A stretch of DNA of 46,983 nt, taken from assembly GCA_944358115.1 (NCBI GenBank), contig CALVQH010000003.1:1-46983 (forward strand), given 5' to 3'. The translations under genes and the position numbers were made by a program. A model generated the notes under the pieces. The model made no database searches and was not told the DNA's origin. It was given only the letters and a program-made list of their open reading frames with translations. Origin of the DNA: an uncultured Bacilli bacterium. Lineage in GTDB: Bacteria; Bacillota_I; Bacilli_A; RF39; UBA660. Of the stretch, positions 454 through 19,928 are shown in pieces (the first letter of the stretch is position 1; every line of letters begins with the position of its first letter).

Positions 454-499
454 CACTTAATTAAATGTATGAAAAAACTGATGTTTTTAATACACCGGT

Positions 500-1456: not shown

Positions 1457-1505
1457 TTTTATCCCTCTCTATTCTTAATCATTATACCAAATTATTGGCT
1501 TTCAT

Positions 1506-1787
1506 TCAATTCTTTATTTCGCTAATCATGAACCAGCGGCAACCATAAGCACAATTATTTTTAATATAATCGCTTACTTTGTCCACATCATTCATTTCTT
1601 TAAAATTTTTACTGGTTTTGCTGTTAAATCCTTTTAATCGCAATTTACCATAAGCAATATCCCCAACAATATAGTCAAAGTCATCAAAATATTCGGTTAT
1701 TTTTTCAGATAATTCTTCTATATTAATGGCATCTTTATAATTATTTAGCACTTGATATTTGCGATCATTGATTGTAATTACTTCCAT
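1506..1787 (-). CDS. yutD: YutD-like protein (DUF1027 family)
   Basis: 93 aa. The core YQVLNNYKDAINIEELSEKITEYFDDFDYIVGDIAYGKLRLKGF matches my memory of the YutD signature (..YDYIVGDWGYgQLRLKGF). Confidence 0.6.
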   Translation of the reverse strand: MEVITINDRKYQVLNNYKDAINIEELSEKITEYFDDFDYIVGDIAYGKLRLKGFNSKTSKNFKEMNDVDKVSDYIKNNCAYGCRWFMISEIKN

Positions 1788-1796
1788 AAACCCTCC

Positions 1797-2648: not shown

Positions 2649-2655
2649 CTAATCT

Positions 2656-2684
2656 ATTATACCAATGTTAGCTTTAAAAAACAA
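2656..2684 (-). promoter_or_regulatory. sigma-A-type promoter for the 2648->1 operon
   Basis: Minus strand TTGTTT - 17 nt - TATAAT, with TGg extended -10 (ttggtataat), about 10-35 nt upstream of the ATG at 2648. Confidence 0.5.
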
Positions 2685-2744
2685 TTATCAAATTTTGTAA
2701 ACCTGTTTACATTCTATTTACTTTTAAATATTTTGGCATAAGAA

Positions 2745-2807
2745 AAAGCACTTGACCTCGAGGGCATATAAGCCAAAAGAGAGTTTGGAATTTTGGCCAA
2801 GTGCTTT
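2745..2807 (-). terminator. long-stem structured hairpin followed by a U-run; probable intrinsic terminator of the spoVID/ysxE-like operon
   Basis: 13-bp stem (minus strand aaagcacttggcc / ggtcaagtgcttt). One pair is G.U on the minus-strand RNA but an A.C mismatch on the plus strand. The stem encloses a 37-nt interior with possible sub-hairpins (ccaaaa...ttttgg, ggc..gcc). It is followed on the minus strand by tttttctt. Confidence 0.4.
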
Positions 2808-2943
2808 ATGTACAGATTTCTCCGTACAACAATATTATATATTTACTCTCAGTAATAATCAAGCAAAAGCGTTCGACAATTTTTACCAATTTGTCATTTA
2901 ACCAATTGTTTTATTTCATCATAAAATATGTTAGGTGATTATT

Positions 2944-3132
2944 ATGTATCCAAGGCGGCCTTGTGGTAGTGGACTTTTTACTATTTTAGCTATTTTTTGT
3001 CTTTGTATTTTGATTTTTTATCAAATTATTATTACTTTGATTTTGCCTTTTCGATTTAATATCTTTATTTTATTAGTGGAAGTGTTTATTCTTTTTTATT
3101 TATTATTTCGAATTATCTATCCCCGTTGTTAG
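2944..3132 (+). CDS. small hydrophobic protein (62 aa, two predicted TM helices), uncertain
   Basis: Good SD (taggtga, 5-nt spacer) before the ATG at 2944. Product MYPRRPCGSGLFTILAIFCLCILIFYQIIITLILPFRFNIFILLVEVFILFYLLFRIIYPRC. T-rich DNA can generate such ORFs by chance. The 3' end overlaps the convergent gene by 20 nt. Confidence 0.3.
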   Translation: MYPRRPCGSGLFTILAIFCLCILIFYQIIITLILPFRFNIFILLVEVFILFYLLFRIIYPRC

Positions 3133-4012
3133 GTGGTAGTAATTTTTTTACAAGAGTCTCTGTTTTAAAAATATAATCTAATTTTTTTCTAATTTCTCTT
3201 GTGATATTCATTTCTTTTCCTTCTAAATTGATAATTGGGGGTATACTTATAACAATGAAAAATAGATGTTTTTCATTTAAACTTAAAGGATAATTCCTTA
3301 AATATCTTTCTAAAATGGGTTCGAAATTTAAATTCATATATTCTTTTTGATAGAAACCGATTAAATCAAGAATTGGTGAATCAATTTTTGATTTTTCCCA
3401 GCTAATTAAATATTCTCTGGTATTTTTGATAAAATGATCTGTTTCTAAATTATTGTGGATAAAAGCTACTCTTGTTTTTTGCTCTTCTTTTACTCCATCG
3501 AACCATCTATCTAATTGGTCTTGGCAAAAATTTAGAGATTCAAATATTTTGTAAATATTACGCATTAATAAATAATGACTAGGAGAAGGATATACTTCTT
3601 CTAGTAGTTTTTCATATAGAAAATTATAATATCCTTCTGTATAGACAATATTTTCTTTTAAATTCTCGTAAATTTCTTTATATTTATCTTCTGTTACTTC
3701 CTTATAATAAGTGGTTTTATTATGAAGAAGAGCAACTAAATCAATCATATCCATTGCTTTTTGTTCTTTAGGCATAGGAATTTCTTCAATGTATTCAAAT
3801 ACATTTACATCTTTTCGATCTTCTACTGCTAATTTAGGAAAATAATCAAAATTTCGACTTAATAGATATTCATAAGCATTTTCTATTTTATTATCCTTTT
3901 TTTCTTTTATTACAAACGTTCCACTTGTAGAGTTCATGATGGTTACTTTTTTCTTTTTAGTTAATCTATATGGCTTATATTCCCTTTTTAATACTTCTAA
4001 AGCATTATTCAT
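3113..4012 (-). CDS. CotS/YsxE-family phosphotransferase-like spore-coat protein
   Basis: 299 aa, kinase-like fold cues (IHNNLETDHFI region). Overlaps the preceding SpoVID-like gene by 8 nt, the same order as Bacillus spoVID-ysxE. Confidence 0.6.
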   Translation of the reverse strand: MNNALEVLKREYKPYRLTKKKKVTIMNSTSGTFVIKEKKDNKIENAYEYLLSRNFDYFPKLAVEDRKDVNVFEYIEEIPMPKEQKAMDMIDLVALLHNKTTYYKEVTEDKYKEIYENLKENIVYTEGYYNFLYEKLLEEVYPSPSHYLLMRNIYKIFESLNFCQDQLDRWFDGVKEEQKTRVAFIHNNLETDHFIKNTREYLISWEKSKIDSPILDLIGFYQKEYMNLNFEPILERYLRNYPLSLNEKHLFFIVISIPPIINLEGKEMNITREIRKKLDYIFKTETLVKKLLPPNNGDR

Positions 4013-4691
4013 TATTTTCCGGTATAATTAATTTATCGCCGGGAGTAATACTAGTTAGATCATTGTAGTCTTGTAAAATATTTAAATTGGAATTATACAT
4101 CGTACAAATTGTTTCTACACTTTCGCCATCACTTACCATATGAATATGATAGGTGGCATATTCATTGGTATCTGCTTTAATACTGTTAATAATCGTATCT
4201 TCACTCTCCCTTTTTTCTTCTGTTTGCTCTTCTTTCTCTTCTTTGCTTGCCTCCTCTTTTTTGTCTTCTTTTTCTTCTCTATCTTCATCTTCTAAAACAT
4301 CAGTCGGCTCTAAAAAAGCATTGTCGGCATTTTGAAATAGTGGTTCTTCCTTTGGTTCTTCTTCTTTTTCTTTTAGGCTTGCAATGACATTAAAATCGAT
4401 ATTCACTCTGAGTATACTTTGATCTACTATCTCATAAGTAAAGTCTTCAATCATAAATTCAATGGTATCTGGATCCACATCATCAGCTAGATCAATTTCA
4501 AAAGGTAAAATATAAGAAAATGGTTCTTTGTTAACGCTTACTTCATGACTTTTAAAATCACCTGAAACAATAAAATTTCCTTTTAATACTCCCTCTTCCA
4601 CTTTGGTTTCGTGTTCTAAACTAATGCTGGTAATTTCACTTACTTTTTTTTCGAAATCAATGTCTTTTGTAAATGGTATTTTACAATTCAT
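4005..4691 (-). CDS. SpoVID-like protein: N-terminal SPOCS-like domain, acidic E/K/D-rich linker, C-terminal LysM
   Basis: C-terminal LysM signature YHIHMVSDGESVETICTMYNSNLNILQDYNDLTSITPGDKLIIP. Central EDEDREEKEDKKEEASKEEKEEQTEEKRESED. Followed by a CotS-family gene. Confidence 0.55.
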   Translation of the reverse strand: MNCKIPFTKDIDFEKKVSEITSISLEHETKVEEGVLKGNFIVSGDFKSHEVSVNKEPFSYILPFEIDLADDVDPDTIEFMIEDFTYEIVDQSILRVNIDFNVIASLKEKEEEPKEEPLFQNADNAFLEPTDVLEDEDREEKEDKKEEASKEEKEEQTEEKRESEDTIINSIKADTNEYATYHIHMVSDGESVETICTMYNSNLNILQDYNDLTSITPGDKLIIPENNE

Positions 4692-4756
4692 CTTATCATC
4701 TCCTAAAAAATTGTATGAATTCTTACTATAAATATGCTTAAAATTGCGATAATAAA

Positions 4757-4785
4757 TTGACTTTTCCCATATAATATGTTAAAGT
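4757..4785 (+). promoter_or_regulatory. promoter of rpmB
   Basis: TTGACT - 17 nt - TAAAGT with TGt extended -10. SD ggaggtg at 4806-4812. Confidence 0.45.
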
Positions 4786-4817
4786 TTTATAAGTAAGAAA
4801 TTTATGGAGGTGGCAAA

Positions 4818-4979
4818 ATGGCTAAAAAAATTACAACAAAGAAACCTTTAACAGGTAATAAAAGAAGTCATGCACTTAATGCAATTAAAATGAAGCAAAA
4901 ACCTAATATTCAAAAAAAGACTATTAATGGAGAAAAGGTAAGAATTAGTGCTAGAGAAGCAAGAACATTAGAAAAATAA
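4818..4979 (+). CDS. rpmB: 50S ribosomal protein L28
   Basis: Below the ORF-track size cutoff; hand translation gives MAKKITTKKPLTGNKRSHALNAIKMKQKPNIQKKTINGEKVRISAREARTLEK. The GN(K/R)RSHA.N motif is typical of L28. Strong SD GGAGGTG 5 nt upstream. Confidence 0.85.
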   Translation: MAKKITTKKPLTGNKRSHALNAIKMKQKPNIQKKTINGEKVRISAREARTLEK

Positions 4980-5001
4980 CACATCGTAGTGATGTGTTTT
5001 T
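4979..5001. terminator. bidirectional intrinsic terminator shared by rpmB (+) and the CoA-transferase gene (-)
   Basis: acacatc-gtagt-gatgtgt hairpin, followed by ttttt on plus and preceded by an A-run (a T-run on minus). Confidence 0.6.
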
Positions 5002-6565
5002 ATATTAAATCTTTTTTGATATTCATTTTTTCCGGCATAAATATGCGTTCATCCATTCGTTTTATATTTTTAGATATAGTTGGTTTAAAGTCCATTTGAT
5101 CTAATATATCTTTTTTCAAATCAATTCCAGGGGCTATTTCAGTTAATTCTAAGCCACCTTTTTTTAATTCAAATACTGCTCTTTCGGTTACAAATAATAC
5201 TTGAATATTATTATTTATCGCATTTTTACCACTAAAAGTTATTTGTTCTACATGATCGACAAATTTTTTCTTGTTTCCTTCTTGATCAATTATTATTTTT
5301 CCATCCTTTACTTCTTCTTTTAAATCTACGGCTGTAAAGGTTCCCATAAATATAATTTTTTTGGTACTTTGAGTAATATTAATAAATCCTCCTGGACCTG
5401 TTACTCTTGTTCCAAATTTAGAAACATTGACATTTCCTTCTTTATCTACTTCAGCTAAACCTAAAATAGCCAAATCTAAAAATCCACCATCATATAAATC
5501 AAAGTTATCAGCAGTAGAAATAATAGAATCTGGATTTATGCTTGCACCAAAAGCAACTCCACCAATAGGAATTCCGCCTGTTGGCCCACATTCAATTGAT
5601 AAATAGATATCATGGATAAAATCCTCTTCATTTACCACTTTAGCAACTAAATCAGGCATGCCTACGCCTAAATTAATTACATCCCCTTTTTTTATTTCCA
5701 TGGTACTACGTCTGGCACATACTTTACGAACGTTTAATGGACATGCTTCAATTTTTACATCTATTTTTTTCTCTCCTGTTAATTCCGGACGATAAATTGG
5801 TAAATTGTAATCCCCTAAAGATAGATCCGGTTTGCTTACTACAACATAATCAACTAGTTTATTATGAATTAATACATCTTTAGCTTTTAGTGAGCCTGCT
5901 GGTTTAATTTCTTCTACCTGAACGATTACTATTCCTTTAGAATTATGAGCGGCAGCAGCCATGTGAAATTGTTCAGAAATTACGGCTTCATGTTCAAAAC
6001 TAATATTTCCTTCTTCATCAGCATAGGTTGCTTTTATTAAAGCAACATTGATTGGAAAGCTTTTATAGAACAAATAGTCTTTATTGTCTATTTTTAATAA
6101 TTCTACTATTGGTGGTTCTTTTTTGGCAAGATCATTTATACAACAGCCTTCTATCCGAGGATCAGCAAATGTATCTAAGCCAATTTTACTTATGATTCCT
6201 GGCTCTTTACCAACAATAGCTCTTAATAAATGATTGATAATTCCTAAAGGAAGACCAAAAGCTGGAAATGTATTCTTTCCAACTGCTTTTCCAAATAACT
6301 TTCCCATTCCTAAATGAGCACAAATTGCTTTTGATACTAATCCTTCTTTACTAAGCATGTTCATTCCCACAGCATCTTCAGTTAAATTTCCGGGAGAAAT
6401 TCCCGCTACAACTGTAAGGTTTCTAGGTTTAGCATATTGGTCATAGCTTTCTTTTACACTTTTTAGTAAAATTTCAGGAGAACAGCTTCCACCACAGCCG
6501 GTAATAGCAACGGTGTCATTATCTTTAATTAGACTTGCTACTTCTTTTGCATCTATTATTTTCAT
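5000..6565 (-). CDS. family-I acyl-CoA:acetate/propionate CoA-transferase (YdiF/Pct-like, fused alpha-beta)
   Basis: 521 aa. The length, N-terminal GCGGS region and overall pattern fit fused 3-oxoacid/acetate CoA-transferases. Confidence 0.75.
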   Translation of the reverse strand: MKIIDAKEVASLIKDNDTVAITGCGGSCSPEILLKSVKESYDQYAKPRNLTVVAGISPGNLTEDAVGMNMLSKEGLVSKAICAHLGMGKLFGKAVGKNTFPAFGLPLGIINHLLRAIVGKEPGIISKIGLDTFADPRIEGCCINDLAKKEPPIVELLKIDNKDYLFYKSFPINVALIKATYADEEGNISFEHEAVISEQFHMAAAAHNSKGIVIVQVEEIKPAGSLKAKDVLIHNKLVDYVVVSKPDLSLGDYNLPIYRPELTGEKKIDVKIEACPLNVRKVCARRSTMEIKKGDVINLGVGMPDLVAKVVNEEDFIHDIYLSIECGPTGGIPIGGVAFGASINPDSIISTADNFDLYDGGFLDLAILGLAEVDKEGNVNVSKFGTRVTGPGGFINITQSTKKIIFMGTFTAVDLKEEVKDGKIIIDQEGNKKKFVDHVEQITFSGKNAINNNIQVLFVTERAVFELKKGGLELTEIAPGIDLKKDILDQMDFKPTISKNIKRMDERIFMPEKMNIKKDLI

Positions 6566-11542: not shown

Positions 11543-12407
11543 CTATTCCTAAATATATATTTTTACCTGCTAATAAATGTTGTTTTAATTTCTTTTGTAA
11601 AGAAGTTGTTTCTGGTAATTCATTTGTGTTTTGACATTCTTTTAATTCAAAGACAAAATTTAGAATATCACTTGTGCATTCACTTCCCTTTTTGATCTCA
11701 AATAATTGTGAAAACTTAAAAATATTCGAATTTTCATTTAGCTCATTTAATACTTCTTGGCTTAGTAGCCATGAACAGCAATAATATTTAGGTTTTTTTA
11801 AATGAAAATATTTTTTTATTTTTTGAGGAGCCTTATTTAACGATTTTTTTACTTCTTTTATTTCTAATGTTTTTCCTCTCGGAATATGGATTTTTATTCC
11901 TTCTTCTACTTCATTTGTTAGAGGATTTTTAAAGCTTATTTCATATTGCAATCTTCCTATTTCGATGATTCGCTCTTTTGTAAAATAAATTCCCCATAAC
12001 ATTTGGGATATTCTAATCCTTTCATATCCTCTTTTTATTATATCATTTAGTAAGGATTCTCGAATTCTTCTTTTGGCTATTTTTATTTGTTTATGCGAAA
12101 AATGGCGTCTATTTTCTTTTAAAATTGGATAAGCACTTAATAAAATAATGTTAGTTAAAAAAGGAATGCTACTCTCTTTTAATATTTCTTCTAAATCTTC
12201 AATATTCCATAAACTTTTTAAATACTCATCATCTTTTAACATTCTTTCTCGAATCGCTAATACTTTTTCTAATAACTTTGGATTTTTTTCTAGTTCTTCT
12301 AAGCTTTTTAGACATTTCTTGGCATAATTTTCATCTTTGATTTGATAAAAAGCTAAGGCTTGTTTTATTTGCTCTTGATTCATTGAAAAGTTCACCCTCT
12401 TTATCAT
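11526..12407 (-). CDS. hypothetical protein (possibly a DUF5596/GNAT-like acyltransferase-domain protein)
   Basis: 293-aa ORF. The N-terminal helical region (QALAFYQIKDENYAKKCLKSLEELEKNPKLLEKVLAIRERML) resembles acyltransferase-domain proteins from memory only. Confidence 0.4.
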   Translation of the reverse strand: MIKRVNFSMNQEQIKQALAFYQIKDENYAKKCLKSLEELEKNPKLLEKVLAIRERMLKDDEYLKSLWNIEDLEEILKESSIPFLTNIILLSAYPILKENRRHFSHKQIKIAKRRIRESLLNDIIKRGYERIRISQMLWGIYFTKERIIEIGRLQYEISFKNPLTNEVEEGIKIHIPRGKTLEIKEVKKSLNKAPQKIKKYFHLKKPKYYCCSWLLSQEVLNELNENSNIFKFSQLFEIKKGSECTSDILNFVFELKECQNTNELPETTSLQKKLKQHLLAGKNIYLGIGLLKK

Positions 12408-12472
12408 ATCATATTTTTTCTATTTATGAATAATTTTATTTGTTTTCATGTATTATATTAATAGGTGAGTTT

Positions 12473-12994
12473 ATGACTTTAAAGAAATGGAAAATTATTA
12501 GTATTGTTGGTATCTTTTTAGTAAGTGCCCTATTACACTTTATTTATGATTGGTTTCCTAATTTTTTTACTAGTTTATTTTTTCCTGTTAATGAAAGTAT
12601 TTGGGAACATAATAAAATTATTGTTGGATCTTTTTTGATTTTGGCAATTATTGAAAAAATTTATTATAAGAAACGCAAGAATGTTATTTTTGCGGAAGTT
12701 ATTTCGGCTCTGGTATGTATGACTTTAGTTATGCTTATTTTTACGCCTGTTTATTTATATATTTTGAAAACGAATGATAATATGATTGTTACATTTGCTA
12801 TTTTTATTATTGCAATTACTATTAGTCAAATTGTTTCTTATCATTTACTACAAAAAGAATATTATCCTAGGTTAGAAGAATTAGGTGTGATTCTCTTTGT
12901 TATTTTCTTCTTGATCAATATCATATTTACTTACTATCCACCAAAATTTGCTATCTTTTATGATTATACGAATCAAATTTATGGATTAAAATGA
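12473..12994 (+). CDS. small polytopic membrane protein, paralogue 1 (pairs with 16550-17059)
   Basis: Start moved to ATG 12473 (SD aggtgag). About 5 TM segments. Shared motif W-F-P-x-F-x-T-S-L-x-x-P-(V/I)-N-(E/D)-x-I-W-(E/Q)-x-N-K with the second copy. Confidence 0.6.
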   Translation: MTLKKWKIISIVGIFLVSALLHFIYDWFPNFFTSLFFPVNESIWEHNKIIVGSFLILAIIEKIYYKKRKNVIFAEVISALVCMTLVMLIFTPVYLYILKTNDNMIVTFAIFIIAITISQIVSYHLLQKEYYPRLEELGVILFVIFFLINIIFTYYPPKFAIFYDYTNQIYGLK

Positions 12995-13599
12995 TGAGTT
13001 TTATTTAAGGAATTTATAATAAATGAGATTACCTCATCATCTTTATCTTGCTTTTTATTGTTTAGTCGATCTTCTTCTGTCAGATCAACAAAATATTTGT
13101 TTAGCCTTTTATCAATGGAAATAGAATCTAGGGGATAACCGGGATTTCTTTTTTTATTTACATCACTCACTAAATAAAAATCTTCATAGCTCCATGAATA
13201 TTCATAAGTATTACCATCATTTATTAAAACCATGCCATATACCCATCTTGCTTTTAACTTACCACCATATTCTTTAACTAATTTGGTATAATACTCGATC
13301 ATTTCATCATCATTTAATTCTTTACCATTAATTCTTCTCACATAAGTGCCTGGTTGTAATTCATCTGGAATGCCTTCAATAAATAAATTGTTATCCATGC
13401 CTATGGTCGGAAGTTCTAATTCATCATAATATGCTTTTGCTTTAATATAAGCATTTTCTATCGCATTTTTACCAGTTTCTTCTACGGGAATATGAGTATC
13501 AATATCTTTTAATGTTAATAATTCAATTCCAAGTTTTAATAACTTTTCTTTATAATTTCTAACTTTAGCGGGATTAGAGGTCGCAAATAGCACTTTCAT
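12979..13599 (-). CDS. HAM1/RdgB-like non-canonical NTP pyrophosphatase, divergent (paralogue A)
   Basis: MKVLFATSNPAKVRNY..., ETGKNAIENAYIKAKAYY, PTIGMDNNLF, PGTYVRR. These correspond to the Ham1 motifs (T-x-N-x-K; ETG..ENA.IKA; DDSGL-like Asp; PG..S.R). No C-terminal SHR motif. The start overlaps the upstream stop as TAATG. Confidence 0.65.
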   Translation of the reverse strand: MKVLFATSNPAKVRNYKEKLLKLGIELLTLKDIDTHIPVEETGKNAIENAYIKAKAYYDELELPTIGMDNNLFIEGIPDELQPGTYVRRINGKELNDDEMIEYYTKLVKEYGGKLKARWVYGMVLINDGNTYEYSWSYEDFYLVSDVNKKRNPGYPLDSISIDKRLNKYFVDLTEEDRLNNKKQDKDDEVISFIINSLNKTHHFNP

Positions 13600-14036
13600 T
13601 ATTCCTCTCCTTTCATACTTTTTAAATAGTTATCTAAATTTTTATTTTGTTTTATTTCTGATACAAAATTAGGTTTAAATTGATCTAAATATTCAATTAT
13701 CAAATTGACATATTGATTAATGTTTTTATCATTCACAATATCTTTCAAATATTTGCTGATTCCTTTTTTCGTGTTTACTCTATCTATGTAGAATGCAAGT
13801 AAATTGGTGTTTCCTACTTTTTCTTTTGCTGATAAAACTATAGAAAGTAACGCCTCTCTTGTAGCACTATATCTTGCTTTATAGCCACCACATCTAGAAA
13901 AAAGTATTAGAGCGCATCCTACAAATAATTTGTCTGTTCCATCACTTGGAAATGTTTTTTTGGCAAATTCGATTAGACTTTCTATATTATTTTTTTCATA
14001 ATCATCATATAATTCCATTAAAATTCGATTAATCAT
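13599..14036 (-). CDS. hypothetical 145-aa protein, predicted all-alpha, no recognisable motif
   Basis: ORF with SD aggtaggaag. Translationally coupled to paralogue A. Confidence 0.55.
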   Translation of the reverse strand: MINRILMELYDDYEKNNIESLIEFAKKTFPSDGTDKLFVGCALILFSRCGGYKARYSATREALLSIVLSAKEKVGNTNLLAFYIDRVNTKKGISKYLKDIVNDKNINQYVNLIIEYLDQFKPNFVSEIKQNKNLDNYLKSMKGEE

Positions 14037-14074
14037 AAATTTAACTTCCTACCTTAATTATTTTTCTCAAGTTT

Positions 14075-14737
14075 TTAAGTTCTTTTTTTTAATTCCTTAT
14101 TCATTATCCATTTGATATCTTCAATCGATTTGTTTATGTTAAACCGTCCGTTACCAATAGGATAATATACAGAATAAAATTTATAATTTGTTCCATTAAT
14201 ATCTTTTAAAAATAACTTTTTTCTTACTTGTGATACTGAAATTTTTTTATTCAAAACAATGGAACTTACTTGATTACCAAAAAGAATAATTACCTTAGGT
14301 TTAACAATTTCTATTTCTTTTTCTAATAATTGTAAATATTGCTTGTAAACTGAATTAGGTAAAGCTCTAGCATCCGGTTGCGTGCATTTTCCTAAATTAG
14401 TAATAAAATATTTATGCTTTATTACATCATCATATACTTCCCTAGCAAAGTCTTCTGTCCATTCTTTTCCTTTTTTTGATTTTATTTTGTTATATGTATT
14501 TTTATCCAAAAGATTTACTTCAGCAAATAAATCCCATATATTTTTTGTTCCAATCCAAGGCGCTTTTAATCCTTTCCATGTTTTAGAAGAAGCTATATTT
14601 CTTCCAGTTGGATTCATAAAAACAAAGCAAATATCTGGTCGATTTTCGCATCCTCCATTATAAATAGAATCAAGCTCTTTAGCTCCATACTTTTTTCCAA
14701 GTTTATCATATTCTTTATTTAAATCAGTTAAAATCAT
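14075..14737 (-). CDS. uracil-DNA glycosylase superfamily protein (Asn-type motif 1, MUG/SMUG/HDG-like)
   Basis: Motif 1 CFVFMNPTGRN (compare GINPG/GMNPG). Later ITNLGKC, IILFGNQ and a C-terminal YYPIGNG motif-2-like loop. 220 aa. SD aaaggtg in the 12-nt gap after the upstream gene. Confidence 0.65.
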   Translation of the reverse strand: MILTDLNKEYDKLGKKYGAKELDSIYNGGCENRPDICFVFMNPTGRNIASSKTWKGLKAPWIGTKNIWDLFAEVNLLDKNTYNKIKSKKGKEWTEDFAREVYDDVIKHKYFITNLGKCTQPDARALPNSVYKQYLQLLEKEIEIVKPKVIILFGNQVSSIVLNKKISVSQVRKKLFLKDINGTNYKFYSVYYPIGNGRFNINKSIEDIKWIMNKELKKRT

Positions 14738-14749
14738 TATAACACCTTT

Positions 14750-15385
14750 TTACTTTGATAACTTTCTCATTTCTTTGTGTTCTATTTCATAAATCGTATT
14801 TAATATAAAATCAAAGATTTCTTGTTGTTCTATATCCATCGTTTCTTTTTCTTCCTCTTCTGTTAGTTCGGACTTGAATTTATTTAGGGAAGGTATAATT
14901 TGAATAGAAGCTAGTGGATAGCCCTCATCAATTACTTTGCTTTGCCTATTCGTAAAACAGCGATTTGCTTGATAATCAAAGGTATAAATATCATTATCGT
15001 CAATTATAGCAACACCTTTTAAAAAATATCCTAACAATTTTCCATCTTTTCCATACTTATTTACTAGACTTATATAATAATCTATCATCTCTTTATCATT
15101 TAAACGTCTGTTATTTACTCTTCTTACATGTGTACCAGGTTGTATTTCATCAGGAATATTTTCTAGAAATAATCCTTCATCTAGCGCTATCGTTGGAATA
15201 TGACTTATTCCATAGTATGCTTTAGCTTTAATAATAGCATTTTCAATTGGATTGTTTCCTGTTTCATCCACATCACAAGTAATCCCTAGTTCTTCTAAGG
15301 TTACTATATCTATTCCTTTTTGTTTTAATTTATTCCCATAATATCTTATCTTGGCTTTATTAGTAGTAGCTAATAGTATCTTCAT
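14750..15385 (-). CDS. HAM1/RdgB-like non-canonical NTP pyrophosphatase, divergent (paralogue B)
   Basis: MKILLATTNKAKIRYY, DETGNNPIENAIIKAKAYY, PTIALDEGLF, PGTHVRR. Roughly 40-50% identical by eye to paralogue A over the N-terminal half. SD aggaga. Confidence 0.65.
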   Translation of the reverse strand: MKILLATTNKAKIRYYGNKLKQKGIDIVTLEELGITCDVDETGNNPIENAIIKAKAYYGISHIPTIALDEGLFLENIPDEIQPGTHVRRVNNRRLNDKEMIDYYISLVNKYGKDGKLLGYFLKGVAIIDDNDIYTFDYQANRCFTNRQSKVIDEGYPLASIQIIPSLNKFKSELTEEEEKETMDIEQQEIFDFILNTIYEIEHKEMRKLSK

Positions 15386-15406
15386 TATATTCTCCTAACT
15401 TCCTAT

Positions 15407-15435
15407 ATTATAAATTCTTTTCTTATTTTTGTCTA
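15407..15435 (-). promoter_or_regulatory. candidate promoter of the four-gene HAM1/UDG operon
   Basis: Minus strand TAGACA - 17 nt - TATAAT in the 63-nt gap between the ORF6N gene and paralogue B. Confidence 0.45.
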
Positions 15436-15448
15436 TTGTTTATCCTTT

Positions 15449-16252
15449 TTATATTCTATCAATTAAAGCTTTTATTATCATTTTATCATTAATTAAAGTA
15501 ATAGAAAATGTTTTATATCCTATTCTATTAATACTAGCACCGCAATGATAAACAATTTCGTTATCTATTATAAAATATCTATCATGAAATGTATTATCAT
15601 ATTTTATTGTTAAATTATGATACTGTTTGTTATATTTTTCTATATCTTGTTCGCTTAATAAATTATTTTTCCTTGTTATAATTTTCACTTTAACATTTAA
15701 TCTTTTTATTATATCAAGCAATGTATGATCAGCATAAGAATCTATTATAATTAATTCTTTCTTAACACTTTTAAAAATATCTAATATTTTCGAATACGCA
15801 TCATAAATTTGACCATTAAAATAAATTTCACTATCTTTTCTTTTTTCTTCAAGTTTTTGAAATGACTCTTCTAAAACTTTTATTTTATCATGGTCTTTTA
15901 ATACTAAATTATTAATATATTTTTGTTCTATTAAATTAGCTCCTATGTATTTGCGCATGGCAACAAAAGCATCCATTATTTTGATGCTCACTTCTTCTGC
16001 TACTGAAGTTCTAAGTATCGTTGCTAGCATGGCCACACCTTGCTCTGTGAAAGCATATGGCAAATACTTAATATTATGTCCTTGTCCTTTCAAGGTTTCG
16101 ATTTGAAACCTTGAAATACTACTTACTTCTTCAATGGTTAACTGAAACATAAATCTTTCCGGAAACCTATTAATATGTCTTTTAACTGCTAAATTAATAG
16201 TTTTTGTTCCATTAGCACACTTATAAAGTTTGGCTAGATCACTATCTAACAT
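15449..16252 (-). CDS. ORF6N-domain DNA-binding protein with C-terminal PLD-like (HxRx4D) domain; N-terminus disrupted by a 1-nt frameshift (original start probably ATG 16323)
   Basis: MLDSDLAKLYKCANGTKTINLAVKRHINRFPERFMFQLT is the ORF6N core. The C-terminus has FHDRYFIIDNEIVYHCGASIN. The upstream in-frame codons NLIYEIRGKQV are preceded by TGA. A separate short frame MNDIVLNQKDKIEI* (16323-16279) carries the missing N-terminus. Confidence 0.65.
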   Translation of the reverse strand: MLDSDLAKLYKCANGTKTINLAVKRHINRFPERFMFQLTIEEVSSISRFQIETLKGQGHNIKYLPYAFTEQGVAMLATILRTSVAEEVSIKIMDAFVAMRKYIGANLIEQKYINNLVLKDHDKIKVLEESFQKLEEKRKDSEIYFNGQIYDAYSKILDIFKSVKKELIIIDSYADHTLLDIIKRLNVKVKIITRKNNLLSEQDIEKYNKQYHNLTIKYDNTFHDRYFIIDNEIVYHCGASINRIGYKTFSITLINDKMIIKALIDRI

Positions 16253-16549
16253 TACTTGTTTGCCACGTATTTCATAAATTAAATTTCAATTTTGTCTTTC
16301 TGATTTAAAACAATATCATTCATATTCTACCCCACTGATTTTTTAAGAGAATTATATCAAAACATACTTTTTGTTTGTCAATAATTTGTTTAAAAATGTA
16401 AATACATTTTATGTACTTTCCCATAAGAAAAAAACTTGAGATAAATCTTAAGCTCTTTTAAATAATAACACAATATTTTGGTGCATTCATGTGTTTAATT
16501 TTTTACATAAATACAGCAAAAATTATTAAACTAATAAAAAGGTGATTTT

Positions 16550-17059
16550 ATGAGTCAAAGTAATTATAAACTTAAAATATGGAAAGTTTGTAGTGTTATT
16601 GTTATATTTTTGTTAACTCTTTTGGTAAATAATATCTATTTGTGGTTTCCTTCTTTTATTACTTCTTTAATATCCCCAATTAATGATCATATATGGCAAT
16701 TTAATAAGGCGATTATCCTTTCTTTTTTGATTTGGTCTGTTTTTGAGAAAGTAACCATAAGAAAAAAGCATGATTTAAATACTTGTACCAGTGGACTTAT
16801 TGCCGCCCTTACATGTACTTTTTTATTCATGCTTATTTACGCTCCTATTTATTTTTATGTTTTAAATCAAGAACACAATCTATTTCTTATGTTTCTTATT
16901 TACTTTATTTGTATTGTTATTAGTGTTTTACTTAACTATCAATTACTTAAAAGAAAATATAATTCTGAACTTGAAAAGAAAATTATTTTATCTTGGTTAC
17001 TTGTAGTGGTGATTAATGCTATTCTTACCTTTTATCATCCTAATTTAGCTTTGTTCTAA
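16550..17059 (+). CDS. small polytopic membrane protein, paralogue 2
   Basis: 169 aa, SD aaaaggtga, same TM layout and motif as 12473-12994 (about 30% identity by eye). The 3' end overlaps ogt by 15 nt. Confidence 0.6.
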   Translation: MSQSNYKLKIWKVCSVIVIFLLTLLVNNIYLWFPSFITSLISPINDHIWQFNKAIILSFLIWSVFEKVTIRKKHDLNTCTSGLIAALTCTFLFMLIYAPIYFYVLNQEHNLFLMFLIYFICIVISVLLNYQLLKRKYNSELEKKIILSWLLVVVINAILTFYHPNLALF

Positions 17060-17543: not shown

Positions 17544-19928
17544 TTAGAAACGGCCTCCGCCGCCGCCTCCACCACCGAAGCCACCACCAGAAGAGAATCC
17601 TCCTCCCCCTCCAGAACCACTTGACCAATTAGAGCCACCTGAAGAGCTATTGTAAGTTCTGGCACTATTAATTGATGAGGATACGGTATGGGAAATGATG
17701 TTTAAATTCATAAATGTTATGGGATCAAAACTAAAGGTGTAATCAACATTCCTGTTTTCTAGCTTTATTTTCATGGTTTTAGAAAGTTTATCAGCACAAC
17801 CTAAAACAACTGCATAAACTAAATATTTTTCCCAAAGAATAATTTCTGGTAGAGATTTTTCATCCATGGTGCCAAAATCTTTTAGAAACTGTTTGAATGC
17901 TTGCCACTTTTTATATTCCAATGCTCCTTTTTCTGTTCTTTTCTTAGCAATTGCAGTATAAATCATGAGTATCATTGCAACTATTATAACAGCTAAATAA
18001 ATTAAAAGTGCATCATTAATAAAATGATTATAAACAAATAAATGGATTATTCCTATTATAGAATAAATAATTGTTAATATTGCAAAAATTCTACTATATT
18101 TTTTAGTACGATAAAATTCACTTTTAACTTCCTTTAATTTGTAAGAAAGTGTATTTTTGTTCCAGCAAAGGATAATTATAAGAGCAAGGATAAAGGCCAA
18201 GAAGCCTATGCTAGCTGCAACAAGAAGAATAATGATCGAAACGATTCCTTTCCAAGATTCTTTCTTAGAAGAACTTTCTACTTTTGTTTTATCTTCTTCA
18301 TATAATTTTTCACTTAATGCTCTATTTAACATGATTTTATTTACTTTTTTATAGTCTTTATAAAAACTAGTTGTTGTTTTAGCAGCTTTCTTTAAATCTT
18401 TTAACCAAATCTTTCCTTTATTTCTAAAGATTAAATTCATTAAAGCTTTTTCTAATTCATTTTCATGATCTAATTCTAAGCCGTTTTTTTCTAAAAGAAT
18501 GTCTTTCTTTTCTTTGTCTTCTGTAGCTTTTATTTTTTTCTCATAAATTAAGTATAAGATTTCGGCCGAAATGGATTCTTCGGTTATTTTCTTTTTCATC
18601 AAATATTCAACAGTCGATGGGGAAAAATTATCAGGAAAATCGCGCATATACTTGTGGTCAAAATCAACAACATATTCTTTATCGCATTTATAGTATATAT
18701 AAATGCCTGTTCCTAATAGACATACAATTACAATACTAGCAATAATTGATGCAGTTTGATTATAATCTTCTTCTTTTTCCATAATTTCTTGTTTAATGGG
18801 AACTAACTTTGTTAATAATTCACTTTTTAATTCTTCATTTTCTAATATGGTTACTGATTCCATTGCAGCGTTATACCAATAATAATCACGAGTTTCTAAA
18901 GCTCTTTCGACATCTTCTTTCGCTGTTGTTTCCTCAGTTTCCACGACAAGAACGTGTAATTCTTCTAATTTGCTTTGTAAGTCAGCTAAAACTGTTTCAT
19001 TTGTTACTAAAGAAATATAATAAGAAGCATTATTGTAACAGACCCTAGTTGGATATCGGTTACAATAATCTAATTCCGTATATGCTTGCTCCTCATTTTG
19101 ATATTCTGTTTGCTCTCGTTCATAGTTTGCTTGATTGGAAGCATTTTCTTCATAGTTAAGTATTTTAGTTAGGGCATCTACACCGGTTGTTTTGGTTGAT
19201 TTTGCTACTACTTTCTTATCAAATGCTGCTCGAATATCAACTGCCTCATAACTATAAACATTAGTTACTTCTGCTTCAAGTACTTGATTTGATGTTTTCT
19301 TTATAACTCCATTTAAAGGTCCATGAGCCCATACGCGGAATTCATTTTGGTTACCGGGAAAAGTTACGGTTATTTTTAGAGTTCCGATGGATTCACGAAG
19401 AGAATCTCCAATTGCATTCCAATAAAGTTCGGCAATATCATTATGAACAATTGCCATATTTTTTAATGTGTATTTAATATAAAAGGCTTCCTTTTTACTA
19501 TCTGGTAAATAGATTTGATAAGATGCTCCATTACTAGAAGTACTCACCGTATAAACGCCATAATCACCGGGATCAGCACTACTTACTTCTTTAAAAAGCG
19601 TACCCGAAATATTTGTGAAATCAAAATTTTCATCGATTGGCAGAGCTCTAATTTCTATTAGTTCTATGCCACTACCATTATGAAGCTTACTTCCACCATA
19701 ATAATCTAATTCGGGACGAAATTCATATAAATCATCATTTTTATAAAGAATATCTCGTTCCATACCATTAAATTCACCATTTAAATAGAAGTACTCTTCA
19801 ACGGTTAAATCGCCATTTTCTTCTACTACAGCGTTTATATAAAACTTTTTTATTCCTTCTTCAGCATTTACCGTAAAGGGTATGCACAACACTAAAATAA
19901 ATATAAACTGAAAAAATAATTTTTTCAT
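17544..19928 (-). CDS. DUF2207-type membrane protein with Gly-rich C-terminal tail
   Basis: 794 aa. Signal peptide MKKLFFQFIFILVLCIPFTVNA, large extracellular N-domain, several TM segments, tail SSGGSNWSSGSGGGGGFSSGGGFGGGGGGGGRF typical of DUF2207 proteins. Confidence 0.7.
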   Translation of the reverse strand: MKKLFFQFIFILVLCIPFTVNAEEGIKKFYINAVVEENGDLTVEEYFYLNGEFNGMERDILYKNDDLYEFRPELDYYGGSKLHNGSGIELIEIRALPIDENFDFTNISGTLFKEVSSADPGDYGVYTVSTSSNGASYQIYLPDSKKEAFYIKYTLKNMAIVHNDIAELYWNAIGDSLRESIGTLKITVTFPGNQNEFRVWAHGPLNGVIKKTSNQVLEAEVTNVYSYEAVDIRAAFDKKVVAKSTKTTGVDALTKILNYEENASNQANYEREQTEYQNEEQAYTELDYCNRYPTRVCYNNASYYISLVTNETVLADLQSKLEELHVLVVETEETTAKEDVERALETRDYYWYNAAMESVTILENEELKSELLTKLVPIKQEIMEKEEDYNQTASIIASIVIVCLLGTGIYIYYKCDKEYVVDFDHKYMRDFPDNFSPSTVEYLMKKKITEESISAEILYLIYEKKIKATEDKEKKDILLEKNGLELDHENELEKALMNLIFRNKGKIWLKDLKKAAKTTTSFYKDYKKVNKIMLNRALSEKLYEEDKTKVESSSKKESWKGIVSIIILLVAASIGFLAFILALIIILCWNKNTLSYKLKEVKSEFYRTKKYSRIFAILTIIYSIIGIIHLFVYNHFINDALLIYLAVIIVAMILMIYTAIAKKRTEKGALEYKKWQAFKQFLKDFGTMDEKSLPEIILWEKYLVYAVVLGCADKLSKTMKIKLENRNVDYTFSFDPITFMNLNIISHTVSSSINSARTYNSSSGGSNWSSGSGGGGGFSSGGGFGGGGGGGGRF

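What the first reader, a model, noticed from the sequence alone, without database searches (positions are those of the whole stretch)
12979..15435. Four-gene operon pairing two divergent HAM1/ITPase-like paralogues with an Asn-type UDG-fold glycosylase and an unknown 145-aa protein
**Seen in the sequence**
- Gene order on the minus strand is HAM1-like B (15385->14750), UDG-fold protein (14737->14075), 145-aa unknown (14036->13599), HAM1-like A (13599->12979).
- Gaps are 12 nt and 38 nt, then a TAATG stop/start overlap. Each gene has its own SD.
- A TAGACA-17-TATAAT promoter lies in the 63-nt gap upstream.
- The two HAM1-like proteins keep the N-terminal nucleotide-binding motifs (T-x-N-x-K; ETG-N-x-IENA-x-IKAKAYY; the Asp of the DDSGL-equivalent loop; PGT-x-VRR). 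Both lack the canonical C-terminal SHR motif and are only about 40-50% identical to each other by eye.
- Motif 1 of the glycosylase is FMNPTG. That is the Asn type seen in MUG/SMUG/HDG, not the GQDPY of family 1 or the GEAPG of family 4.

**Established knowledge**
- Ham1/RdgB enzymes hydrolyse (d)ITP/XTP.
- Several Asn-type UDG families excise hypoxanthine, xanthine or uracil.

**Inference**
- The operon couples nucleotide-pool cleansing with base excision for a non-canonical base.
- Two paralogues in one operon suggests a heterodimer (Ham1 enzymes are dimers).
- The fixed unknown partner makes this more than ordinary housekeeping.
- It could be a dedicated deaminated-purine repair module. It could equally be a defence module against phages that use non-canonical bases (dU, hmU, 2-aminoadenine, deazaguanines).
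- I know of no described system with this composition, but I cannot search.
Basis: partly seen in the sequence, partly recalled or inferred. Interest (0 to 1): 0.7.

Follow-up and report, generated by a model that had tools for sequence, protein, structure and literature searches.

The report
Swappable glycosylase–Ham1 cassette with orphan partner
An uncultured gut bacterium carries a real four-gene operon joining an unusual DNA-glycosylase-like enzyme, two enzymes that probably destroy abnormal DNA building blocks, and a strongly conserved protein of unknown fold; the exact foursome is a local mosaic, but the glycosylase/cleanser pairing and the orphan protein's tendency to sit beside glycosylases recur across many species.

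Summary
Four minus-strand genes (HamB, a 220-aa UDG-fold protein, a 145-aa unknown, HamA) lie at the stated coordinates, with the stated spacing and promoter-like site.

- **Not a conserved system.** The foursome exists only in this lineage. In close relatives the same slot holds Q_salvage + mini-UDG, or mini-UDG alone. HamA is present or absent.
- **What recurs.** UDG-fold genes sit next to Ham1/NUDIX/YjjX-type NTP pyrophosphatase genes, with different subtypes of each. The 145-aa protein sits next to UDG-fold genes of five to six subfamilies (10 of 92 flanking genes versus 3 of 149 controls).
- **The 145-aa protein.** It has a confident all-α model with no structural relative. It is as conserved as ribosomal protein L19.
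- **The two Ham1 genes.** HamB→UDG and UDG→HamA each occur elsewhere with one Ham1, so the pair looks like a merger, not evidence of a heterodimer.
- **An accessory block.** It lies in a defence-island-like slot, was recently exchanged between lineages, and is jointly pseudogenised in a sister lineage.
- **Known systems.** It is not Kongming and matches no PADLOC system.

Best reading (about 0.5): an accessory module that removes one non-canonical base from both the nucleotide pool and DNA. Anti-phage defence is a serious rival (about 0.3).

The parts
15407..15435 (-). Promoter-like site TAGACA-17-TATAAT in the 63-nt gap upstream of HamB
   Evidence: It matches 11 of 12 positions and is the best minus-strand match in 12300-16700. 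DNA homology with relative L011 runs through this site and stops 15 nt into the first cassette gene. Function is not shown.
14750..15385 (-). HamB: divergent Ham1/ITPase-like NTP pyrophosphatase (211 aa)
   Evidence: Pfam PF01725 E 3e-13, far below the NCBIfam equivalog cut-offs. E. coli RdgB (PDB 1k7k) E 6.5e-10. It keeps the catalytic Asp (LDEGLF) and lacks SHR. A 71%-identical HamB-type gene sits directly upstream of UDG220 in L122. In the sister lineage it has a nonsense mutation at codon 31.
14075..14737 (-). UDG220: UDG-superfamily glycosylase-like protein with a family 4-like scaffold, a family 2/3-like motif-1 Asn and no motif-2 His
   Evidence: Pfam PF03167 E 1e-7. TIGR00758 scores 45 bits against a cut-off of 125. 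AF2 model pLDDT 78, pTM 0.81. Foldseek top hits are family 4 UDGs 1ui0 and 4zbx (E 3e-8, TM 0.6-0.7), then MUG/TDG and UdgX. Invariant residues include N42, P43, K117, C118, Q120, D122, A123, Y192, P193, G195, N196 and G197. The family has about 4,900 clusters. pI 9.6.
13599..14036 (-). p145: conserved 145-aa all-alpha protein of unknown function and orphan fold
   Evidence: No Pfam, NCBIfam, PADLOC, PHROG or PDB sequence match. AF2 pLDDT 90.5, pTM 0.82. Foldseek finds nothing in PDB or BFVD (best E above 1, TM 0.41 or less). There are 385 clusters at 90% identity and 60 at 50%, all from uncultured gut Bacilli. It is as conserved as RplS. UDG is the top Pfam family among its immediate neighbours.
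12979..13599 (-). HamA: Ham1/ITPase-like NTP pyrophosphatase (206 aa) of a large SHR-less subfamily
   Evidence: Pfam PF01725 E 2e-15. RdgB 1k7k E 1e-7. The subfamily has about 2,800 clusters. The consensus keeps the catalytic Asp (GMDNNLF), PGxxVRR and GYPLD and lacks SHR. HamA-type genes sit downstream of UDG220, mini-UDG, p145 or NUDIX genes in other lineages. It is cleanly absent in L010-L012.
15449..16252 (-). Upstream neighbour: ORF6N + PLD-like protein (PADLOC candidate PDC-S05). It is exchanged and decays together with the operon; whether it belongs to the module is uncertain.
   Evidence: Pfam ORF6N E 2e-22. PADLOC PDC-S05 E 1e-80. PHROG anti-repressor-like. It is 97% identical at the DNA level to the sister lineage and frameshifted there. 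Its own 5' end is frameshifted in the window.

Best explanation
The operon is an accessory 'non-canonical base hygiene' module in the chromosome of an uncultured gut Bacilli bacterium related to Candidatus Caccenecus.

**Proposed mechanism**
- The Ham1-like enzymes keep their catalytic Asp. I infer that they hydrolyse an aberrant (d)NTP to the monophosphate, so that it is not incorporated into DNA.
- UDG220 is basic, has the UDG fold and has a MUG/SMUG-like catalytic Asn. I infer that it excises the corresponding base once it is in DNA.
- The logic is the same as MutT with MutM/MutY for 8-oxoguanine, or dUTPase with Ung for uracil.
- The base is unknown. Deaminated purines (hypoxanthine, xanthine) are the leading candidate. 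Loss of the SHR motif in the Ham proteins and of the motif-2 His in the glycosylase leaves room for a different specificity.
- p145 is a conserved accessory factor that works with UDG-fold enzymes. It is mildly basic and may bind DNA. Its biochemical role is unknown.

**Architecture**
- The four-gene arrangement is a mosaic. A HamB→UDG220 unit replaced the glycosylase cassette upstream of a resident p145→HamA pair.

**Shown versus inferred**
- Shown: fold and family assignments, retained and lost motifs, recurrent linkage, cassette swapping, lateral exchange and joint decay.
- Inferred: enzymatic activities, shared substrate, the role of p145, and action on the cell's own DNA.
For: **Families and motifs**

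**Recurrent UDG and NTP-pyrophosphatase linkage with swapped parts**
- UDG220→HamA-type in L017, L022, L132, L142, L145 and L112.
- HamB-type→UDG220 in L122.
- mini-UDG→HamA-type, abutting, in L157/L158.
- NUDIX→NTPase_I-T→UDG220→Ham1-like with overlapping genes in L069.
- NUDIX→HamA-type in L154-L156.
- A HAD::UDG220 fusion in L146.
- Sources.

**p145 and UDG-fold genes**
- UDG is the most frequent Pfam family at offset ±1 from p145 (10 of 92) against 3 of 149 at offsets ±4/5. Fisher p = 0.004.
- Five to six UDG subfamilies are involved.
- NUDIX or Ham genes are directly adjacent in other species.
- Sources.

**Housekeeping-like features**
- p145 matches RplS in conservation (median 65.9% versus 63.6%).
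- UDG220 is 64-80% identical across species, and its family is very large.
- Ogt lies two genes away.
- There are no PADLOC or PHROG hits, and phage genomes give no match for UDG220 and only two weak hits for HamA.
- GC content does not deviate.
- Sources.

**Functional linkage**
- Genes are translationally coupled: TAATG here and an 8-nt overlap of mini-UDG with p145 in L011.
- All genes of the block are inactivated together in a sister lineage while the flanks stay intact.
- Sources.
Against: - No activity or substrate has been measured.
- SHR, the purine-recognition motif of ITPases, is absent from the whole Ham subfamily.
- The glycosylase fails every catalytic signature of its nearest family.
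- The slot is hypervariable and sits next to defence-candidate genes: PDC-S05 here, ResIII and a type I R-M fragment in L157, and R-M, Fic, RhuM and Schlafen-like genes near p145 elsewhere.
- The block is 94-97% identical to the sister lineage (p145 91%) while the flanks are 78-88% identical. It is dispensable there. That pattern is more typical of accessory or defence genes than of core repair.
- Most UDG220 loci (about 85%) and most p145 loci lack the proposed partner nearby.
Confidence: 0.5

Rival explanations
1. Anti-phage defence. The UDG-fold enzyme excises a modified base (for example dU, hmU or another thymidine or guanine derivative) from invading phage DNA, as Brig1, Brig2 and the Dag enzymes do. 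The Ham1-like or NUDIX enzymes destroy the phage's modified dNTP precursor. p145 is the conserved adaptor or regulator, while glycosylase and NTPase 'specificity modules' are swapped to track phage DNA chemistry.
For: - The glycosylase cassette is replaced between close relatives at sharp breakpoints, with a conserved promoter and a conserved p145.
- The adjacent ORF6N-PLD gene is PADLOC candidate PDC-S05.
- The syntenic slot in L157 holds a ResIII helicase and a type I R-M fragment.
- p145 loci often carry R-M, RhuM/PDC-S05, PDC-S13/S22/S23, Fic or Schlafen-like genes.
- The block was recently exchanged laterally and is jointly pseudogenised.
- There are published precedents. Brig1 is a UDG-family antiviral glycosylase (PMC11078745). 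Brig2 is UDG-like and acts against phages with modified thymidine (10.1101/2025.10.29.685425). Defensive HAM1 modules are sometimes found next to UDG or NTPase genes (10.1101/2024.12.20.629578).
Against: - None of the four proteins hits PADLOC or PHROGs.
- UDG220, the HamA type and p145 are very strongly conserved, and p145 tracks species divergence like RplS. Getz et al. describe defence glycosylases as highly variable in sequence and housekeeping ones as conserved.
- GC content does not deviate.
- Many UDG220 and p145 loci are in plain housekeeping contexts: rplS-lepB-ylqF-rnhB, cmk, PBP.
- The published defence glycosylases act as single genes.
Confidence: 0.3
2. One reading: the two Ham1 paralogues form an obligate heterodimer, which together with the glycosylase and the fixed 145-aa subunit makes one dedicated four-component machine.
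For: - Ham1/ITPase enzymes are dimers (established knowledge).
- The two paralogues are co-transcribed and both keep the catalytic Asp.
- All four genes decay together in the sister lineage.
Against: - The foursome is confined to one lineage and its sister.
- Every other UDG-Ham locus sampled has a single Ham. HamB-type and HamA-type genes each pair with UDG220 on their own.
- p145 is absent from several UDG-Ham pairs (L069, L157, L132, L142).
- HamA is cleanly missing in L010-L012, which keep p145.
Confidence: 0.07
3. Kongming-like nucleotide signalling. A Ham1-like protein acts as a catalytically dead sensor of dITP or another base-modified nucleotide and activates an effector.
For: - Ham1-like proteins lie in a defence-like slot.
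- Kongming-type KomBC modules are reported next to UDG, NTPase and 5'-nucleotidase genes.
Against: - Defensive HAM1s invariably carry His in place of the catalytic Asp and are tightly linked to the SIR2 effector KomC.
- Here both Ham proteins keep the Asp.
- No SIR2 or other effector gene is in the locus.
Confidence: 0.03
4. No functional unit. The genes are merely neighbours in a recombination-prone slot, each doing an unrelated job.
For: - The content of the slot varies greatly.
- Most members of each family occur without the others.
Against: - The same kinds of genes re-associate in unrelated contexts with different subfamilies.
- UDG is enriched at offset ±1 from p145.
- Coding regions overlap or abut.
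- A natural HAD::UDG220 fusion exists.
- The whole block is inactivated together.
Confidence: 0.1

Closest known systems
RdgB / ITPA / Ham1 house-cleaning (d)ITP/XTP pyrophosphatases (Pfam PF01725)
   Same: - Significant sequence similarity to E. coli RdgB (E 1e-7 to 6.5e-10).
- Conserved T/S-x-N-x-x-K, ETG..ENA..KA, the catalytic second Asp of DDSGL, PGxY..R and a GY(P/D) motif.
   Different: - The SHR motif is absent from the whole subfamily.
- The C-terminal half has diverged.
- Scores are far below every NCBIfam equivalog cut-off (45-71 bits against 145-301).
- Two paralogues lie in one operon, linked to a UDG-fold gene.
UDG superfamily: family 4 UDGa (nearest in sequence and structure) and families 2/3 MUG/TDG/SMUG1 (same catalytic style)
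   Same: - UDG fold, with Foldseek E 3e-8 to family 4 and 1e-6 to MUG.
- An ITN-x-x-KC segment like family 4.
[quoted passage not shown]
   Different: - It lacks family 4's E-G doublet, H155, N89 and a conserved four-Cys set.
- It has its own invariant signatures: CFVFMNP, KCTQxDAR and YYPxGNGRFN.
- I found no characterised member.
MutT + MutM/MutY ('GO system') and dUTPase + Ung: two-level sanitation of one lesion (established knowledge)
   Same: The same logic is proposed here: a pool-cleansing NTP pyrophosphatase plus a glycosylase for the same base.
   Different: - In those systems the genes are usually unlinked.
- Here they are operon partners, the families differ, the target base is unknown, and an orphan protein is attached.
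Brig1 / Brig2 antiviral UDG-fold glycosylases (PMC11078745; bioRxiv 10.1101/2025.10.29.685425)
   Same: - A UDG-fold enzyme in a variable, defence-gene-rich neighbourhood.
- The cassette shows lateral exchange.
   Different: - Brig enzymes act alone.
- Defence glycosylases as a class are described as highly variable in sequence, and 41% of Brig2 homologues lie within 20 kb of a mobile element or defence system.
- UDG220 is highly conserved, belongs to a very large family, shows no GC deviation, and comes with NTPase partners and p145.
Kongming KomABC dITP-signalling defence system (bioRxiv 10.1101/2024.12.20.629578)
   Same: It contains a Ham1-like protein, and related KomBC modules are sometimes found beside UDG or NTPase genes.
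   Different: - KomB has His in place of the catalytic Asp and always partners with SIR2 KomC.
- Here the Asp is kept and there is no SIR2 or adenosine deaminase gene.

Membership tests
Ham1/ITPase superfamily (PF01725) | Significant sequence match to the family profile and to solved RdgB/ITPase structures | tested here: met
   Pfam E 3e-13 (HamB) and 2e-15 (HamA), both above the gathering score. RdgB 1k7k E 6.5e-10 and 1e-7.
Ham1/ITPase superfamily (PF01725) | Catalytic Asp (second D of DDSGL) and the N-terminal phosphate-binding motif T/S-x-N-x-x-K | tested here: met
   HamA MDNNLF and HamB LDEGLF align their Asp with the second D of RdgB DDSGL, which is the position changed to Ala in PDB 2pyu. 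ATSNPAK and ATTNKAK are present.
Canonical RdgB/ITPA (d)ITP/XTP pyrophosphatase (NCBIfam equivalogs such as TIGR00042) | C-terminal SHR motif and a score above the equivalog cut-off | tested here: not met
   SHR is replaced (KKQ/NKK in HamA, MDI in HamB) throughout the subfamily. TIGR00042 scores 45-54 bits against a cut-off of 145.
Canonical RdgB/ITPA (d)ITP/XTP pyrophosphatase | Hydrolysis of (d)ITP/XTP to the monophosphate plus PPi | not testable with these tools
   This needs an enzyme assay.
UDG superfamily (PF03167) | UDG alpha/beta fold and a profile match | tested here: met
   Pfam E 1e-7, above the gathering score. The AF2 model matches 63 PDB UDG-fold chains at E <= 1e-3, top TM 0.6-0.7.
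UDG family 4 (UDGa) | Motif 1 G-E-(A/G)-P-G doublet, motif 2 His (H155), motif 3 Asn (N89), and Cys ligands for a 4Fe-4S cluster | tested here: not met
   Motif 1 is F-M-N-P-T-G. Y192 stands in place of the His. The invariant A123 of 'DAR' aligns with N89. Only three Cys are present, and C30 is Glu in L049. TIGR00758 scores 45 bits against a cut-off of 125. The Fe-S criterion comes from my own knowledge.
UDG family 2/3 (MUG/TDG, SMUG1) | [quoted passage not shown] | tested here: met
   N42 is invariant and there is no His in motif 2. The criterion comes from PMC5387724. Overall sequence and structure are closer to family 4, so this is a shared catalytic style and not membership.
Kongming (KomABC) | HAM1 subunit with the catalytic Asp replaced by His, tightly linked to a SIR2 effector, usually with an adenosine deaminase | tested here: not met
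   The Asp is kept in both Ham proteins. No SIR2 or ADA domain lies within 10 kb.
Defence glycosylases (Brig1/Brig2 type) | Proximity to mobile elements or defence genes, high sequence variation, local GC deviation | tested here: inconclusive
   For: PDC-S05 neighbour, swapped cassette, lateral exchange. Against: 75-80% identity across the family, no GC deviation, many housekeeping contexts.
Defence glycosylases (Brig1/Brig2 type) | Protection against phages with modified DNA | not testable with these tools
   This needs phage challenge experiments.
Any PADLOC-DB v2 defence system | Profile match of the operon proteins | tested here: not met
   No family matches HamB, UDG220 or HamA. p145 has only chance-level hits (E 0.01-0.03). 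Only the neighbouring ORF6N-PLD gene matches, to PDC-S05.

The most novel reading that the evidence does not exclude
p145 is the conserved core, with a new fold, of a previously undescribed modular system. An interchangeable UDG-fold glycosylase (at least five to six subfamilies) and an interchangeable NTP pyrophosphatase (Ham1, NUDIX, MazG-like or YjjX) are plugged in beside it. Together they recognise and destroy DNA and precursors that carry a particular modified base. This would be a multi-component anti-phage defence against hypermodified phage genomes, with p145 as adaptor, regulator or DNA-handling subunit.
Probability: 0.2. Interest if true: 0.85.

Novelty: new variant of a known kind. 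Interest (0 to 1): 0.6.

Why it matters
- It would give a physically linked, operon-encoded example of two-level sanitation of a non-canonical base (pool plus DNA), built from uncharacterised subfamilies of two classic enzyme families.
- It defines a large UDG clade of about 4,900 clusters. The clade has a hybrid active site: a family 4-like scaffold, a family 2/3-like Asn and no His. Its specificity is unknown.
- It identifies an orphan-fold protein, as conserved as a ribosomal protein, whose only functional clue is its attraction to glycosylase and NTPase genes.
- If the defence reading is right, it would extend the single-gene Brig/Dag glycosylase paradigm to a modular multi-gene system in the abundant but uncultured gut Bacilli.
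- In either case the substrates are directly testable with oligonucleotide and dNTP panels.

Tried and rejected
**p145: no known relative**
- Pfam, NCBIfam, PADLOC, PHROGs, PDB sequence search, Foldseek against PDB and BFVD, and a profile search of 1.84 billion representatives found no known relative.
- IMG/VR holds no relative.

**Phage origin rejected**
- UDG220 has no hit in 50,697 phage genomes. HamA has two weak hits in unannotated faecal contigs.

**Mobile-element signatures not found**
- There is no tRNA, no Rfam family and no convincing terminal repeat around the block.

**Kongming rejected**
- The catalytic Asp is kept and there is no SIR2 gene.

**Family 4 UDG membership rejected**
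- The assignment fails on four catalytic or structural signatures.

**Frameshifts as assembly noise: mostly rejected**
- I first suspected that the frameshifts in L056, L071 and L072 were assembly noise.
- The same lesions recur in L159-L161 from independent samples at about 14x coverage, and the truncated HamB is on 51 contigs.

**Heterodimer not tested**
- No multimer prediction tool is available.

**Other points**
It was rerun on A3.
- A literature search for a described Ham1+UDG operon returned only the Kongming paper.
- My first neighbour counts used HMMs built from the neighbours themselves, which biases ascertainment. They were replaced by an independent Pfam scan with a positional control.

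Full report
**1. The observation**

All four ORFs lie on the minus strand at the stated coordinates:
- HamB, 14750-15385 (211 aa)
- a UDG-fold protein, 14075-14737 (220 aa, here called UDG220)
- an unknown protein, 13599-14036 (145 aa, here called p145)
- HamA, 12979-13599 (206 aa)

The spacing is 12 nt, 38 nt and a TAATG overlap. Each start has a Shine-Dalgarno-like sequence. TAGACA-17-TATAAT at 15435..15407 is the best minus-strand promoter-like match (11 of 12), but such matches are barely enriched in this 28% GC DNA.

Pfam confirms Ham1p_like for both Ham proteins (E 3e-13 and 2e-15) and the UDG superfamily for UDG220 (E 1e-7). p145 matches nothing. HamA and HamB are 44% identical. The identical intact cassette is present in at least three independent samples (L151-L153).

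The organism is an uncultured gut Bacilli bacterium. Its closest named relatives are Candidatus Caccenecus MAGs.

**2. The Ham1-like proteins**

Both align with E. coli RdgB (E 1e-7 and 6.5e-10). Both keep:
- the phosphate-binding T/S-x-N-x-x-K motif
- ETG..IENA..KA
- the second Asp of DDSGL, which is the position changed to Ala in PDB 2pyu
- PGT-x-VRR
- a GYPL(D/A) segment equivalent to FGYDPIF

SHR is absent, not only here but across the HamA-type subfamily of about 2,800 clusters. All NCBIfam equivalog scores are far below their cut-offs.

The proteins are therefore probably active pyrophosphatases with altered base recognition.

**3. The glycosylase**

UDG220 belongs to a family of about 4,900 clusters. 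Family members are 64-80% identical to the window protein. The AF2 model (pLDDT 78, pTM 0.81) has a UDG fold. It is closest to family 4 UDGs (1ui0 and 4zbx, E 3e-8, TM 0.6-0.7), followed by MUG/TDG and UdgX.

Measured against the criteria in PMC5387724 and the Tth UDGa alignment, UDG220:
- lacks the family 4 E-G doublet (its motif 1 is F-M-N42-P-T-G)
- lacks H155 (Y192 instead)
- lacks N89 (an invariant Ala in 'DAR')
- has only three Cys, one of which is not conserved
- has no motif-2 His, as in family 2

UDG220 is basic (pI 9.6). I found no characterised member.

**4. p145**

p145 gives a confident all-α model (pLDDT 90.5, pTM 0.82) with no structural relative in PDB or BFVD (best E above 1). 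The family is narrow: 385 clusters at 90% identity and 60 at 50%, among 1.84 billion representatives. All come from uncultured gut Bacilli MAGs, and none is in IMG/VR.

It is strikingly conserved. Mean column identity is 72%, with 36 invariant columns, many of them Lys, Arg, Tyr, Glu or Asp. Across the same genome pairs it is as conserved as ribosomal protein L19 (median 65.9% versus 63.6%; LepB 51.6%).

**5. Is the foursome conserved?**

It is not. tblastn of the window proteins against 54 species-level loci that encode p145 finds the full cassette only in one near-identical relative. At the syntenic slot, between Ogt/DUF6512b/ORF6N-PLD and DUF6512a/GNAT_C/GntR/ABC, close relatives carry different contents:

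| Locus | Content of the slot |
|---|---|
| window | HamB - UDG220 - p145 - HamA |
| L010-L012 | Q_salvage (PF10343, E 3e-37) - 141-aa mini-UDG (PF03167, E 4e-10; 8-nt overlap with p145) - p145 |
| L013 | mini-UDG - p145 - HamA |
| L157/L158 | mini-UDG abutting a HamA-type gene - ResIII helicase (no p145) |

The DNA breakpoints are sharp:
- Homology with L011 runs through the ORF6N gene, the promoter and 15 nt into the first cassette gene.
- It breaks there and resumes 32 nt upstream of p145.
- HamA is a clean presence/absence difference.

**6. What does recur**

*(a) UDG-fold gene next to an NTP pyrophosphatase gene.* In 80 metagenome loci with UDG220, a Ham1-like gene is directly adjacent in about 10, and NUDIX genes are nearby in about 12.
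- L069 has NUDIX → NTPase_I-T (YjjX family) → UDG220 → Ham1-like, with overlapping or abutting genes.
- L146 is a HAD-phosphatase::UDG220 fusion.
- L154-L156 have NUDIX → HamA-type.
- L157 has mini-UDG → HamA-type.

*(b) Two separate single-Ham arrangements.* In L122 a HamB-type gene (71% identical to HamB, 42% to HamA) lies directly upstream of UDG220. HamA-type genes lie downstream of UDG220, of the mini-UDG, of p145 or of NUDIX. The two paralogues in the window are best explained as a merger of two arrangements that each normally have one Ham. They do not point to a designed heterodimer.

*(c) p145 next to UDG-fold genes.* p145 neighbours UDG-superfamily genes of five to six different subfamilies:
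- UDG220
- the mini-UDG
- a YunG-UDG fusion
- a 169-aa type that resembles hypoxanthine-DNA glycosylases by eye
- a 193-aa type
- a 227-aa type, which lies a few genes from p145

In an independent Pfam scan, UDG is the most frequent family among genes at offset ±1 from p145 (10 of 92), against 3 of 149 at offsets ±4/5 (Fisher p = 0.004). NUDIX or Ham genes are the immediate neighbour in other species (L025, L026, L047, L061).

Even so, about 60% of p145 loci have no such gene within 8 kb. Some are plain housekeeping contexts such as rplS-lepB-p145-ylqF-rnhB.

**7. Accessory behaviour**

A sister lineage was seen in several independent samples (L159-L161, L056, L071, L072). Its truncated HamB is on 51 contigs. 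Compared with the window:

| Region | DNA identity to window | State in sister lineage |
|---|---|---|
| Flanks: Ogt, DUF2207, DUF6512a, GNAT_C, GntR, ABC | 78-88% | mostly intact (GNAT_C frameshifted in L160 and L071) |
| ORF6N-PLD | 97% | frameshift |
| HamB | 96% | nonsense at codon 31 |
| UDG220 | 96% | C37R and frameshifts, stop at codon 170 (L159-L161); one frameshift, no premature stop in L071/L072 |
| p145 | 91% | frameshift, stop at codon 38 |
| HamA | 95% | frameshift, stop at codon 156 |

This indicates recent lateral exchange of the block and joint loss of function. The block is dispensable, and its genes share a fate.

The wider context resembles a defence island:
- The adjacent ORF6N-PLD gene is PADLOC candidate PDC-S05 (E 1e-80).
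- Genes around p145 elsewhere include R-M systems, RhuM, PDC-S13/S22/S23, Fic and a Schlafen-like ATPase.

Against a defence reading:
- The four proteins have no PADLOC or PHROG match.
- Phage genomes give no match for UDG220 and only two weak hits for HamA.
- GC content does not deviate.
- No tRNA, Rfam family or terminal repeat is present.

**8. Comparison with known systems**

- *Kongming.* It uses a HAM1 protein with the catalytic Asp replaced by His, always with a SIR2 effector. Such modules are sometimes found beside UDG or NTPase genes. Here the Asp is kept and there is no SIR2 gene, so this is not Kongming.
- *Brig1, Brig2 and the Dag enzymes.* These show that glycosylases, including UDG-fold ones, can be stand-alone antiviral effectors. 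Defence glycosylases are reported to be variable in sequence and associated with mobile elements, and housekeeping ones to be conserved. UDG220 and p145 look like housekeeping genes by conservation and like accessory genes by local context.
- *Conceptual analogues.* The closest are MutT with MutM/MutY, and dUTPase with Ung (established knowledge).

**9. Verdict**

The operon is real, unannotated (no source gives any of the four proteins a functional name) and a local mosaic.

The best-supported reading (about 0.5) is an accessory module that removes one non-canonical base at the nucleotide and DNA levels, with p145 as an accessory factor linked to UDG-fold enzymes. Anti-phage defence against modified-base phages is a serious rival (about 0.3). 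The heterodimer and fixed-foursome model is not supported.

Activities, the target base and the role of p145 are inferred, not shown.

Noticed in passing
window 16250-16330 (minus strand): The ORF6N-PLD gene has a 5' frameshift. 'MNDIVLNQKDKIEI*' is followed one frame over by 'NLIYEIRGKQVMLDSD...', whereas L013 has an intact 289-aa protein beginning 'MNDTVLKQEEKIENLIYEIRG...'. An A-run appears to be one base short. The 267-aa ORF therefore starts inside the ORF6N domain (Pfam match begins at profile position 12), and the gene may be decaying in this lineage too.
   Followed up: partly
window 12440-12994 (+) and 16550-17059 (+): Two DUF6512 membrane-protein paralogues (about 40% identical) bracket the ORF6N + operon block, both on the opposite strand. 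DUF6512a overlaps the 3' end of HamA by 16 nt. DUF6512b belongs to the high-identity (94%) exchanged tract.
   Followed up: partly
L151 12432-13763: One strain with an otherwise identical locus carries an extra 443-aa gene with a weak HTH_38 match (possibly a transposase) between DUF6512a and GNAT_C. This is more evidence that the neighbourhood is recombination-prone.
   Followed up: no
L146 4371-5666: A natural fusion of an N-terminal HAD-family phosphatase domain to UDG220 (431 aa), confirmed by Pfam. It links this glycosylase family to nucleotide or phosphoester metabolism in a single polypeptide.
   Followed up: yes
L035 8001-8897; L019 3979-4506; L029 4105-4632; L043 819-1559; L048 8001-8720; L051 3001-3750: p145 occurs fused to, or followed by, a 150-175-aa domain with no Pfam match. 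In another clade it carries a C-terminal extension of about 100 aa and is followed directly by a 162-171-aa UDG-fold gene. These extra domains are uncharacterised.
   Followed up: partly
L042 5723-6184 and 7287-7979; L142 3895-4377: DUF5680 proteins sit next to UDG-fold genes in two unrelated loci. A DUF3841 protein is the immediate upstream neighbour of p145 in L042. These are further uncharacterised small proteins travelling with UDG genes.
   Followed up: partly
L001-L004 (about 1-6450): p145 is the divergent neighbour of a YunG::UDG fusion (304 aa). Beyond that fusion lies a strain-variable island: two NUDIX genes, Fic, DpnII- or MwoI-type R-M genes, or MazG-like plus a Schlafen-like/nSTAND ATPase. 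A 1,056-aa SNF2 helicase lies on the other side.
   Followed up: partly
window 14042-14076 and 15396-15430: The two junction regions of the swapped cassette (just upstream of p145 and just upstream of HamB) share a TAACTTCCTA (plus strand) ribosome-binding-site context and are 71% identical over 35 nt. This may be a short homology that helps cassette replacement.
   Followed up: no
window 17544-19928 (minus strand): A 794-aa DUF2207 membrane protein ends in a long Gly-rich tail (…SSGGSNWSSGSGGGGGFSSGGGFGGGGGGGGRF). The longest possible Ogt ORF (GTG start) overlaps its 3' end, while gene callers place the Ogt start further downstream (165 aa).
   Followed up: no
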